A stretch of DNA of 25,801 bases from a virus (taxonomy: Duplodnaviria > Heunggongvirae > Uroviricota > Caudoviricetes), in the IMG/VR virus record IMGVR_UViG_2693429554_000019. The stretch is one strand, 5' to 3'. The stretch's first letter is position 1, and every line of letters begins with the position of its first letter. This document shows positions 9,658 to 12,203 of the stretch, one piece after another. Under the pieces are notes generated by a model. That model was not told where the DNA came from. It did not search any database and saw nothing but the letters and a program-made list of their open reading frames with translations. The position numbers and the translations under genes are program-made.

Positions 9658-9853
9658 AAAGCTTGTCGAATGTCTCAGGGCGTGAAGCGGACCTTCCAAC
9701 AAGCTATATAGGAGCTAAAAAATCCTCATTGATCCAGGCTTTGAGCTTGTAAATTACCATTCCTAAAAGTTACATAATAAGTTCTATAATGTGTAGCATG
9801 GATGATTAATATAGTTGTTTTAAGTTAAGTCCCTACAGGATATGGAGTTTTTT

Positions 9854-10306
9854 ATGTTACAACAACTGGCCTGTGAGTTTTTTATTGAGTTTTCACGATA
9901 TGAATATTGCCTTAAGGCATGTGGGATTTTAATCAATGGAGGCCATTTAAAAGCTGACTGGAATGGATATTCCGATCAGGTGCGTGACGTTATCGAAAAC
10001 CCGTCTACCCCTAAACTTAATGAAGCGATTCATTACTTCGAAGAGCATCCCCCTAAAAAACAGATTTACGGTGAAAAAGGGATCATGTGGTCGGAAAAAC
10101 TACCGAGTTCCCGGCACCGGGCTGAACTAATTTTACTGCTGGTCTGTCGAGTAAGAAACAATCTCTTTCACGGCGGAAAATTCAATGGTAATTGGTTTGA
10201 ACCGGAACGCAGTGAGCAGTTAATCCGGCACGCCCTCACCATCCTACGGGCCTGTGCGGAGAAACACGCCGGAGTGAAAGATGCCTATGAGAACAAACAC
10301 TTCTGA
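9854..10306 (+). CDS. Hypothetical protein (150 aa) with HEPN-like Rx4H motif; candidate RNase/abortive-infection effector
   Basis: Motif RNNLFH in LILLLVCRVRNNLFHGG after a hydrophobic helix-like stretch. GGAG 6 nt upstream of ATG 9854 (alternative in-frame ATG at 9842). Perfect TATAAT hexamer at 9785-9790. A hand-counted 60-nt sample is about 38% GC. Confidence 0.45.
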   Translation: MLQQLACEFFIEFSRYEYCLKACGILINGGHLKADWNGYSDQVRDVIENPSTPKLNEAIHYFEEHPPKKQIYGEKGIMWSEKLPSSRHRAELILLLVCRVRNNLFHGGKFNGNWFEPERSEQLIRHALTILRACAEKHAGVKDAYENKHF

Positions 10307-10413
10307 GACGGGTCACTGCTACAACCCAGCCCATAACGGCAACTCTGACAGAATCATTAAAGGTTACTAGTACATTAAAAGAAATCGCTAAAGCAGTCGG
10401 ATTTATGTCTATG

Positions 10414-10459
10414 GGGAGCAGGTCAAGACGAAGCTAGCCCTGCTCCCCGTGATTTTTAT
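10414..10459 (+). terminator. Rho-independent terminator-like hairpin
   Basis: GGGGAGCAGG (10414-10423) pairs perfectly with CCTGCTCCCC (10440-10449) around a 16-nt loop, followed by a TTTTT run at 10454-10458. Confidence 0.5.
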
Positions 10460-10484
10460 ATACCCACCACGGAGGCATTAGGCC

Positions 10485-11210
10485 CTATTGCCTTTTTTTC
10501 AGGTCATCAAGAATGCTCTGCTTTTCGGCAACCAACATTTTGTACACATCATCATCACTTTTAAGATTAAATTTGAAATGCGATCGTCCCACAGATATGC
10601 CGGATACGCCTTCAATCCACATATCCTTGGCTATTTTTTCATCTGAGTCATCTAGGGCATTTTCAGAAATCTTATCAAGGGATGAGAGGATATCCCCATG
10701 CAACTGTAACAATTTTTTATATGTGATTGATGGCGAATTTTCCTTCCTCCGAGAGATCAAGCTTAGATCATTAATCTGGGCGTTAACGCGATCAATAATA
10801 CCAAAAACTCCTAAGCGAGCCTCAACTGACTTGCGCTCAGATTTATGTTTTGCGCCTGTTTGAAATAACAGCTCGGAGTTAATATACGAACCTAGATCAT
10901 GTGCATCTTTCACCATGGTTCTAACACCCTCACTAAAGTGTGGGTATCCGATAACTAGCCCCCCCAGTAGTGGGATGATCTTACCGTAAGCGGTGATTTT
11001 CGCGATGATTGAGCCTTCAGAGAACTCAACTGTTATCTCTACCTCACTTCCAATAAAAAAAGGTATTCGGCTCTTCGCAAAGGCAGTTATTTGCTTCTCA
11101 ATCTCATTGATTCTTAGTTTCTTATCTTGAGGGGTCGCATTTTTTAACCACTCAGGATTAACATGAACATACGATTGAGAAATGATATTCCCTGATACAT
11201 AGTTTGCCAT
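10485..11210 (-). CDS. Hypothetical protein (241 aa), no recognisable motif; second gene of a minus-strand accessory pair
   Basis: Long ORF in AT-rich DNA (about 40% GC in a hand-counted sample). GGAG 5 nt upstream of ATG 11208-11210. Lys/Asp/Glu-rich with a hydrophobic GKIIPLLGGLVIGYP segment. Confidence 0.55.
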   Translation of the reverse strand: MANYVSGNIISQSYVHVNPEWLKNATPQDKKLRINEIEKQITAFAKSRIPFFIGSEVEITVEFSEGSIIAKITAYGKIIPLLGGLVIGYPHFSEGVRTMVKDAHDLGSYINSELLFQTGAKHKSERKSVEARLGVFGIIDRVNAQINDLSLISRRKENSPSITYKKLLQLHGDILSSLDKISENALDDSDEKIAKDMWIEGVSGISVGRSHFKFNLKSDDDVYKMLVAEKQSILDDLKKRQ

Positions 11211-11393
11211 TCTTACTCCATTAACAAGTTACTTTAGCCACCTAGTAATACCCCTAATTTCAGGAGATATCGATATCATTCGCAACGATTGACCTGTTCC
11301 CAGTTGATTGATACACGACATTGTGAGCAAGATCTATGGCAACTCAAGTACGAACGTCTGCTGATCGCTCAGAGCGGACGGCCTTCGTGGAAG

Positions 11394-12203
11394 TTAGTCT
11401 TGTTGTGGTGGCTCTTTCCAGCGCCATTGCAAGACATTCTCATCGCTGAGAATAAACAGTCCTGACCAAATTGCCGTCCAAAACTGGACATTCAGACACC
11501 ATGGGCGTGTCATAAACCAGCGTAACGGTTTTGCTTCAAACAGATGAATACCTTTTCGCGATGGTGAATATAACGGGGGGCGTCCCACTAACGGCAGACA
11601 AAAGCCCCATTTCCAATATTCAGCAATACGCCTTCGGGCAAATTCAATTGCATTACAGTTCCAGATGATACCCCAACGCCGTTTCCATGTATCATTGAGA
11701 CACCAGTTTTGCATTAGCGAATATTTGGGCGAATTGTCAATAGATATACTTTCACCAGTCATTAAATTTATCGTGCAATATTTTAACTGGTACTGTTCAA
11801 CCGTAAATGCGAATCCATCATCTAGAATAAGTACATCAAGTGTAGGAATATTTGAAAGCGTTAATATTATCGGTGAGTTATTTACATCATGAATGCATAG
11901 TGTTTCTTGGTAGCGTAAGCCACTGCCAATGGCTTCAAAAACAAGTTCAACTTGTTGCAGTGGTTCCTCTTTGCTTCTGAAAGCAATACGTGAACAACGA
12001 GGTTCTTTATCTGTCAACTGAGCAAATCGTAGACTGTACTCCAAATAATTCCCTAAGGAATGCCAGCTCGCCCCTAGCCTGTGTCTCACTGCCCAGCGCT
12101 CATGTGAGAGTTGATAAGTTTTTATCAGCATTATCTGGGTAAGAGTAGACCAGCATTTCTTCACTACTGTAACAATTGCACCAAAAGGAACAGGAAGTGA
12201 CAT
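11394..12203 (-). CDS. Hypothetical protein (269 aa), Trp-rich C-terminal half; first gene of a minus-strand accessory pair
   Basis: 810-nt ORF in low-GC DNA with TAGGGG upstream of ATG 12201-12203. Transcribed from the cos side inward, the position and orientation of old/tin in P2. No catalytic motif recognised with confidence. Confidence 0.55.
   Translation of the reverse strand: MSLPVPFGAIVTVVKKCWSTLTQIMLIKTYQLSHERWAVRHRLGASWHSLGNYLEYSLRFAQLTDKEPRCSRIAFRSKEEPLQQVELVFEAIGSGLRYQETLCIHDVNNSPIILTLSNIPTLDVLILDDGFAFTVEQYQLKYCTINLMTGESISIDNSPKYSLMQNWCLNDTWKRRWGIIWNCNAIEFARRRIAEYWKWGFCLPLVGRPPLYSPSRKGIHLFEAKPLRWFMTRPWCLNVQFWTAIWSGLFILSDENVLQWRWKEPPQQD

What the first reader, a model, noticed from the sequence alone, without database searches (positions are those of the whole stretch)
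9842..12203. Low-GC accessory block at the P2-family defence-hotspot position: three genes of unknown function between the replication/SOS module and cos
In P2-family phages the interval between the replication genes and cos is where P2 carries old and tin, and it is a recognised hotspot for swapped-in anti-phage cargo. Here that interval holds three ORFs with good ribosome-binding sites and no match to anything I can name: a 150-aa gene (+) and a minus-strand pair of 269 and 241 aa transcribed from the cos side inward. Hand-counted 60-nt samples give about 38-47% GC here against about 58% in the late genes, which points to recent horizontal acquisition. An IS110 element sits immediately next to the block. 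This is my best candidate for an undescribed defence or conflict system.
Basis: partly seen in the sequence, partly recalled or inferred. Interest (0 to 1): 0.85.

Follow-up and report, generated by a model that had tools for sequence, protein, structure and literature searches.

The report
Mosaic cargo in P2-phage hotspot
The three unknown genes are real, horizontally acquired cargo in a well-known variable slot of a 186/P2-type prophage, but they are two separately mobile modules rather than one system; one gene looks like a small HEPN-type RNA-cutting enzyme, and none has been tested for any function.

Summary
Observation confirmed. Three ORFs with good ribosome-binding sites (g1 9854-10306 +, 150 aa; g2 10485-11210 -, 241 aa; g3 11394-12203 -, 269 aa) lie in low-GC DNA between the DinI/Tum-like SOS genes and cos of a 186-like prophage. 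An IS110 element abuts them.

This is the published P2 gpA-gpQ defence hotspot, and Rousset et al. 2022 (Table S5B, entries 166 and 167) already list g2 and g3 as separate, untested single-gene entries.

The block is a mosaic, not one system. A g1+g2 cassette occurs in 12 of 5,426 complete E. coli genomes and a g3 module in about 225, usually apart. An 'empty-site' prophage (GPEC1222) lacks both g3 and the IS. Divergent homologues of each gene occur without the others. g2 is frameshifted in many strains where g1 is intact.

Relatives of all three sit beside known defence systems (Hachiman, Gabija, Lamassu, restriction enzymes). A defence role is plausible but unproven. A 22-nt palindrome marks the module borders, and the IS110 is inserted in one copy.

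The parts
8172..8188 (.). Left half of border palindrome H1 (GTCCGCTT-TGTGCCAG-AAGCGGAC), split by the IS110. This is the true left end of the g1+g2 cassette.
   Evidence: H1 is intact in GPEC1222 (L121 5986-6009). Homology of the cassette in all other contexts starts at this point.
8189..9683 (+). IS110-family insertion sequence (transposase ORF 8380-9657), inserted in the loop of H1 with 'GA' at both junctions.
   Evidence: Pfam DEDD_Tnp_IS110 and Transposase_20. 99.9%-identical copies are annotated as IS110 family in E. coli. Empty site in GPEC1222.
9684..11378 (.). Module 1: the g1+g2 cassette. It begins with the right half of H1 (9684-9691).
   Evidence: Moves as one unit at 99.6-100% identity into the P2 G-FI site, the A-cos site and a chromosomal dynamin-gene island; present in 12 of 5,426 complete E. 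coli genomes.
9854..10306 (+). g1: 150-aa HEPN-like protein (predicted metal-independent RNase). Invariant E17-x3-K21 and R101-N-N-L-F-H106.
10413..10448 (.). GC-rich hairpin (GGGGAGCAGG...CCTGCTCCCC) between the convergent g1 and g2; a likely bidirectional terminator (inferred).
   Evidence: Inverted repeat I11: 15-nt arms, 87% complementary, 6-nt loop.
10485..11210 (-). g2: 241-aa protein of unknown function. Small family; no motif or fold assignment.
11357..11380 (.). Border palindrome H2 (TCTGCTGATCGCTCAGAGCGGAC), at the junction of the two modules. It contains the left copy of the 14-nt direct repeat tcgctcaGagcgga (11365-11378).
11379..12378 (.). Module 2: the g3 module (1.0 kb), absent from the otherwise identical GPEC1222 prophage.
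   Evidence: Empty site with a single repeat copy in L121. The module occurs alone in about 225 E. coli genomes, including CFT073 and Nissle 1917.
11394..12203 (-). g3: 269-aa tryptophan-rich protein of unknown function, with no convincing transmembrane segment.
   Evidence: 196 clusters at 50% identity. No Pfam, PADLOC or PDB relative among 64 members. Hydropathy. Entry 167 of Rousset Table S5B.
12371..12392 (.). Border palindrome H3 (TCCGCTCCTCGCTCACAGCGGA). It contains the right copy of the 14-nt direct repeat (12379-12392).
   Evidence: Exact pattern match, with 0 expected in shuffles. Junction analysis.
12468..12615 (.). cos region, with the core GGCGTGGCGGGGA at about 12590. It is the only piece of the 8082-13193 interval shared with other Peduoviridae.
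   Evidence: The same core is seen in cloned hotspot flanks in Rousset Table S2. The identification as the 186-type cos core rests on my memory of that sequence.
12789..13082 (+). 97-aa ORF (phrog_12676, unknown function) in the cos-Q slot. It lies outside the finding but inside the same hotspot.
   Evidence: The slot holds a DUF4145 protein instead in GPEC1222.

Best explanation
The interval is ordinary but uncharacterised cargo of the known P2-family gpA-cos-gpQ hotspot, in a 186-like prophage. It was built stepwise from independent pieces. Piece 1 is a 1.7-kb cassette with two convergent genes, g1 and g2. Piece 2 is a 1.0-kb single-gene module, g3, inserted next to the cassette between 14-nt direct repeats. 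Piece 3 is an IS110 that later landed in the palindrome at the cassette's left border. (Shown.) g1 is a small stand-alone HEPN-type protein. I infer that it dimerises, like other HEPN enzymes, and cleaves RNA without metal through its R-N-x3-H and Ex3K residues, and that it acts as a toxin-like effector that shuts down translation when a competing phage infects (abortive-infection style). How it is kept inactive is unknown. g2 is not an indispensable antitoxin or partner of g1. g2 and g3 are separate genes of unknown biochemistry, and their relatives are also carried in defence islands. Most likely each module is an independent accessory (probably anti-phage) gene, not a part of one three-gene machine.
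Confidence: 0.62

Rival explanations
1. One reading: the three genes form one new three-component defence or conflict system.
For: They are adjacent in this window, in the 10 hotspot occurrences counted by Rousset et al., and in five complete E. coli genomes. All are orphans in a defence hotspot.
Against: g3 is absent from an otherwise identical prophage and is bounded by direct repeats. g1+g2 are in 12 genomes against about 225 for g3. No divergent homologue of any one gene is accompanied by the other two. Each gene has its own upstream region, and the genes are not all in one orientation. Rousset's curation also lists g2 and g3 separately.
Confidence: 0.05
2. g1 and g2 form a two-gene system: a HEPN effector plus a sensor, regulator or antitoxin. 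g3 is unrelated.
For: They are always linked in the enterobacterial cassette, convergent around a shared hairpin. One distant co-occurrence exists in a different arrangement (L053). HEPN toxins usually have partners (PMC3710099).
Against: 77 of 80 g1 loci lack any g2-like gene, even by iterated HMM search. More than 12 divergent g2 loci lack g1. g2 is frameshifted on hundreds of contigs while g1 is intact. g2 has no nucleotidyltransferase (MNT) or other recognisable antitoxin domain.
Confidence: 0.15
3. The genes are morons unrelated to phage defence: host-fitness or virulence factors, selfish addiction modules, or counter-defence genes used by the phage itself.
For: g3 is fixed in an ExPEC-type island next to a TonB-dependent iron-uptake operon, and also sits in an ICE. 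A distant g1 relative sits inside a tail-gene cluster of a myovirus. About a quarter of P2 hotspots carry non-defence cargo such as partition systems. Only 15-32% of unknown P2 hotspot proteins score as antiviral in a 2026 machine-learning survey.
Against: Relatives of all three genes recur next to recognised defence systems. The HEPN catalytic signature is typical of conflict systems.
Confidence: 0.18

Closest known systems
HEPN-superfamily RNase toxins and effectors (HEPN-MNT toxins such as PDB 7ae2, 8xdj and 5yep; the ApeA-like HEPN family; Abi and RloC/PrrC-type HEPN domains)
   Same: g1 has the Rx4H motif with N after R, the upstream Ex3K motif, a helical bundle with an insert between helices, and a small size (about 150 aa against 130-140 aa for HEPN toxins). 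Its relatives lie in restriction-modification and defence neighbourhoods.
Cargo of the P2 gpA-gpQ hotspot: old and tin of P2, and the systems validated by Rousset et al. 2022 (DUF4238, hp+hp+hp '3HP', DprA+PRTase, 2TM+1TM+TIR)
   Same: The same slot next to cos, low GC, swapped between closely related prophages. The 3HP clone from E. coli E1114 even shares this window's cos and 97-aa-ORF flank. A g2 relative lies beside DprA+PRTase in a Rahnella prophage.
   Different: The proteins are unrelated in sequence and size to any of these, and none hits PADLOC. g2 and g3 appear only as untested catalogue entries 166 and 167; g1 is absent from the catalogue.
Cassette-type gene exchange at short palindromes (integron attC sites, and the REP/attC-type targets of IS110/IS1111-family elements)
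   Same: A 22-nt imperfect palindrome (TCCGCT-N10-AGCGGA) sits at every module border. One copy remains at the empty site. An IS110-family element is inserted inside one copy.
   Different: No integron integrase lies nearby. The modules carry their own upstream regions. The element also occurs widely outside cargo sites. It may simply be a terminator-like repeat that offers microhomology. The mechanism is untested. It may already be described in Nilsson et al. 2004 (PMID 12949155), which I could not read.

Membership tests
HEPN superfamily (g1) | Rx4-6H motif with a polar residue (N/D/H) right after R | tested here: met
   R101-N102-N103-L104-F105-H106 is invariant in 28 diverse homologues and kept in a 29%-identical phage homologue. 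Definition from PMC3710099.
HEPN superfamily (g1) | Second conserved acidic residue upstream, typically in an Ex3[KR] motif | tested here: met
   E17-Y-C-L-K21 in helix 1; both E17 and K21 are invariant.
HEPN superfamily (g1) | [quoted passage not shown] | tested here: inconclusive
HEPN superfamily (g1) | Detectable sequence-profile relationship to an established HEPN family | tested here: not met
   No Pfam, NCBIfam or PDB hit for the protein or for 28 family members. hhalign against a HEPN-TPR protein gave probability 1.9%. The only support is a UniRef label on one homologue.
HEPN superfamily (g1) | Metal-independent endoribonuclease activity | not testable with these tools
   Needs biochemistry.
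HEPN-MNT toxin-antitoxin pair | Adjacent minimal nucleotidyltransferase (MNT) antitoxin gene | tested here: not met
   g2 and the neighbours of 80 g1 homologues have no recurrent NTase or other partner family.
Rst_3HP (hp+hp+hp of Rousset et al. 2022) | Homology to the three 3HP proteins | tested here: not met
   The 3HP protein sequences in Table S2A are visibly different from g1, g2 and g3. Peptide searches of the tables place g2 and g3 only in entries 166 and 167. No PADLOC hit; that PADLOC 2.0 includes 3HP models is from memory.
P2-family gpA-gpQ hotspot cargo | Located between gpA and gpQ next to cos, and differing between closely related phages | tested here: met
Any defence system modelled in PADLOC-DB 2.0.0 | Significant match to a system component | tested here: not met
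   No hit for g1, g2 or g3 at E<=1, nor for 64 g3-family members beyond noise.
IS110 family (neighbouring element) | DEDD transposase N-domain plus Transposase_20 C-domain, and insertion without long terminal inverted repeats | tested here: met
   Pfam E 4e-30 and 3e-19. Precise empty site with a 2-nt 'GA' overlap.

The most novel reading that the evidence does not exclude
g1 founds a widespread, so far unclassified family of minimal, partner-less HEPN RNases (over 1,200 clusters, 255 species across many phyla) that act as single-gene abortive-infection defences. In addition, the cargo modules of P2 hotspots, satellites and chromosomal islands are exchanged as cassettes at a conserved 22-nt palindrome that is also the target of an IS110-family element. 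That would be a specific mechanism for hotspot turnover, which the hotspot papers leave open.
Probability: 0.2. Interest if true: 0.65.

Novelty: new member of a known kind. Interest (0 to 1): 0.4.

Why it matters
If g1 is an active stand-alone HEPN RNase with anti-phage activity, a family present in hundreds of species and missing from Pfam, PADLOC and NCBIfam would gain a function. It would also raise the question of how a partner-less RNase toxin is held in check. g2 and g3 (g3 is in CFT073, Nissle 1917 and about 4% of complete E. coli genomes) are concrete, cheap-to-test candidates from a hotspot where random unknown loci have often proved protective: 6 of 8 in P4 satellites, per the 2026 preprint. 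The border palindrome gives a testable handle on how hotspot cargo is swapped. The general phenomenon is already well established, however, so the finding is incremental rather than surprising.

Tried and rejected
- **Single three-gene system:** rejected on modularity (see rival explanations).
- **g2 as antitoxin or MNT partner of g1:** no NTase signature, no conserved co-occurrence, and natural g2 frameshifts with g1 intact.
- **Identity with Rousset's 3HP:** rejected; the proteins differ.
- **g3:** Profile searches of 64 members against Pfam, PADLOC and the PDB found nothing.
- **g2 or g3 as membrane proteins:** hydropathy gives no convincing transmembrane segment.
- **Sequence-profile route to HEPN:** failed. 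Foldseek against the PDB also failed. AFDB50 was unavailable.
- **Conserved neighbour of g1:** BLAST clustering, phmmer and an iterated HMM over 80 loci found none.
- **Known RNAs:** the Rfam scan of 7500-13300 found none.
- **Promoter scan:** not above chance.
- **15-nt direct repeat at 8150 and 12429 flanking the whole cargo:** about 0.6 such pairs are expected by chance by my estimate, so no weight is given to it.
- **Nilsson et al. 2004:** could not be read.

Full report
**1. What is there**

The window is IMG/VR contig UViG_2693429677_000020. It is a 186-like member of the Peduoviridae. Pfam identifies Int, a CI-type repressor, CII, Fil, DUF5347, a Dam methylase, gpA, a DinI-like protein, portal and terminase. 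The backbone is 96% identical to Klebsiella phage Kp4860-7 over window 1-1111, 2112-8081 and 13194-25419. Between 8082 and 13193 the two phages share only a 148-bp piece (12468-12615). That piece carries GGCGTGGCGGGGA, a cos-type core also seen in the hotspot clones of Rousset et al..

The three ORFs of the finding exist as described and have good Shine-Dalgarno sequences. GC is 0.38-0.47 here against 0.52-0.65 in the late genes. An IS110-family element abuts the block.

**2. The genes are real but unnamed**

None of the three proteins hits Pfam, NCBIfam or PADLOC. g1 and g2 fall in PHROGs families of unknown function. All public sources call them 'hypothetical protein'.

- g1 has more than 1,213 homologous clusters and relatives in 255 species-level genomes of many phyla.
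- g2 has 10 clusters, plus relatives at 33-40% identity.
- g3 has 14 clusters in the word-indexed search but 196 clusters at 50% identity in the exhaustive search.

**3. The slot is a published hotspot and part of the cargo is already catalogued**

Rousset et al. 2022 (PMC9122126) defined the gpA-gpQ interval next to cos as a defence hotspot with 1,650 gene arrangements. Their Table S5B lists g2 and g3, with sequences identical to this window, as separate single-protein entries 166 and 167. Each has 10 occurrences and no domain. Neither is among the systems they tested. A conserved g1 peptide is not found in their tables.

Their validated 'hp+hp+hp' clone from E. coli E1114 begins with the reverse complement of window ~12590-12797. 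So it occupies the same slot in the same type of phage, but its three proteins are different. A 2026 preprint reports that 19% of P2-like phages have only unknown genes at the hotspot, and that 6 of 8 randomly chosen unknown P4 loci were protective.

**4. The block is a mosaic, not a system**

In 5,426 complete E. coli genomes the 1.7-kb g1+g2 segment occurs in 12 and the g3 segment in about 225. The latter include CFT073, Nissle 1917 and 83972. The modules turn up in several different places:

- g1+g2 without g3 lie between tail-fibre assembly gene G and sheath gene FI of an intact prophage in UPEC132.
- g1+g2 without g3 lie in the A-cos slot of GPEC1222.
- g1+g2 without g3 lie in a chromosomal dynamin-gene island in SCU-101.
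- g3 alone lies in that same island type in Nissle and CFT073.

GPEC1222 is an exact empty-site reference. It matches window 8001-8188, 9684-11378 and 12379-12615. So this window equals that prophage plus a 1,495-bp IS110 (8189-9683) and a 1,000-bp g3 module (11379-12378). The g3 module is bracketed by a 14-nt direct repeat, of which GPEC1222 has one copy.

**5. No conserved partnership**

Neighbour clustering around 80 diverse g1 loci finds no family in more than 5 loci. A g2-like gene is present in 3, and two of those are the same cassette as here. About 42% of loci have a close upstream same-strand ORF, but these ORFs are unrelated to each other.

Divergent g2 relatives stand without g1. 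They lie:

- beside DprA+PRTase in a Rahnella P2-like hotspot;
- beside a Gabija-like pair;
- beside a PIN protein;
- after tail sheath and tube genes, next to an HNH protein;
- among metabolic genes.

In SCU-101 and many draft genomes g2 is split by a frameshift while g1 is intact. The fragments appear on 99 and 233 contigs. g2 is therefore not an essential antitoxin. One exception remains unexplained: in MAG locus L053 a 33%-identical g2 relative lies directly upstream of a 37%-identical g1 relative.

**6. What g1 is**

The family alignment shows invariant E17-x3-K21 and R99-x-R101-N-N-L-F-H106-G-G-K-F-N. The reference survey of the HEPN superfamily (PMC3710099) defines it by three features: a four-helix bundle with an insert between helices 2 and 3; an Rx4-6H motif with a polar residue after R; and an upstream Ex3[KR] motif. 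Together these form a metal-independent RNase site. g1 meets both motif criteria.

The evidence against is as follows:

- Foldseek finds nothing significant.
- No sequence profile reaches a known HEPN family.

I rate HEPN membership at about 0.65-0.7. RNase activity is inferred.

**7. g2 and g3**

**8. Defence association (guilt by association only)**

- g1 relatives sit between the integrase and Hachiman in P4-satellite hotspots and next to a Type ISP enzyme.
- Among 139 nearest neighbours of 77 diverse g1 loci, PADLOC recognises MADS components, Type II and IV restriction enzymes, pAgo, DRT and Type I methylases. I estimate this at roughly 10% of neighbours. I judge that high, but I ran no matched control.
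- g3 relatives lie beside Lamassu LmuB/LmuC, PDC-S71 and PDC-M04A. Others lie in an ICE and beside iron-uptake genes.

**9. Border palindrome**

Every module border carries TCCGCT-N10-AGCGGA:

- H1, intact in GPEC1222, is the left end of the g1+g2 cassette in every context and is split here by the IS110.
- H2 lies at the junction of the two modules.
- H3 lies at the right end of the g3 module.

The exact pattern is expected 0 times in the window. In the Nissle and CFT073 island it flanks g3 on both sides. It occurs in more than 120 viral contigs with one loop type and 63 with the other. In 26 of 29 P2-like loci it sits 54 or 66 bp after G, while the G-FI gap varies from 1.1 to 3.4 kb.

It may be a terminator-like repeat that supplies microhomology for cargo exchange, and it is a target for the IS110. 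Neither hotspot paper mentions it. Nilsson et al. 2004 may do so, but I could not read that paper.

**10. Verdict**

This is a correct observation of ordinary, already partly catalogued hotspot cargo. The 'one new three-gene system' reading is not supported. The useful new points are:

- the HEPN-type signature of g1 and the breadth of its family;
- the stepwise mosaic history, with exact junctions;
- the border palindrome.

Function remains untested for all three genes.

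Noticed in passing
window 8172-8188 + 9684-9691, 11357-11380, 12371-12392; also L121 5987-6008, L003 3790/7002/8016, L108 (4 copies): A 22-nt palindrome, TCCGCT-N10-AGCGGA, with two conserved loop types, marks every cargo-module border. It occurs in about 180 or more viral contigs. In 26 of 29 P2-like loci it sits 54 or 66 bp after gene G, at the edge of the variable G-FI region. 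It may be a recombination or terminator element; Nilsson et al. 2004 may already describe it.
   Followed up: partly
window 8189-9683: The IS110-family element is inserted precisely in the loop of border palindrome H1, with 'GA' at both junctions and an intact empty site in GPEC1222. It is a late arrival, not the vehicle of the cargo. The palindrome may be its specific target.
   Followed up: partly
window 12789-13082 (+); L121 7991-8695: The short cos-to-Q slot is also variable. Here it holds a 97-aa ORF (phrog_12676, unknown function, acidic). In GPEC1222 it holds a DUF4145 protein, a family that the HEPN survey counts as HEPN.
   Followed up: partly
L123 (E. coli SCU-101) 3286-3717, and cluster members P0307-P0309: g2 is split by a frameshift into 56-aa and 143-aa pieces in a widespread E. 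coli lineage (99 and 233 contigs), while the adjacent g1 is identical and intact.
   Followed up: yes
L053 81-935 and 1004-1432 (MAG, Proteobacteria bacterium OH_PFB_136): This is the only distant co-occurrence of the two families. A 284-aa g2 relative (33% identity, E 4e-26) lies 69 bp upstream of, and on the same strand as, a g1 relative (37% identity). No explanation so far accounts for it.
   Followed up: partly
L003/L122 (Nissle 1917, CFT073) and L123 (SCU-101): A chromosomal island next to a dynamin-family gene carries g3 in some strains and the g1+g2 cassette in others, again with the palindromes. It looks like a chromosomal counterpart of the phage hotspots.
   Followed up: no
L001 (E. 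coli NCTC9100) 6447-13399: The complete g1-g2-g3 block also sits in a decayed P2 remnant (tail fibre, tail-fibre assembly, fragments of E and D, ogrK) between yegR and yegQ. So the cargo outlives the phage.
   Followed up: no
L303 4423-4935 (Escherichia phage vB_EcoM-683R1): A 29%-identical g1 relative that keeps both catalytic motifs is embedded in the tail and baseplate gene cluster of a non-P2 myovirus, overlapping the upstream gene by 4 bp.
   Followed up: partly
window 1000-2200: A second low-GC patch (0.33-0.39) coincides with the CI-type repressor gene (1449-2105, minus strand) and the immunity region next to the integrase. This is an expected variable region, not extra cargo.
   Followed up: yes
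window 7549-7839 and 7778-8083: A 96-aa ORF (phrog_698) overlaps the start of the DinI-like gene. The listed 101-aa DinI ORF probably starts further downstream; RefSeq calls a 77-aa DinI-like protein in GPEC1222.
   Followed up: no
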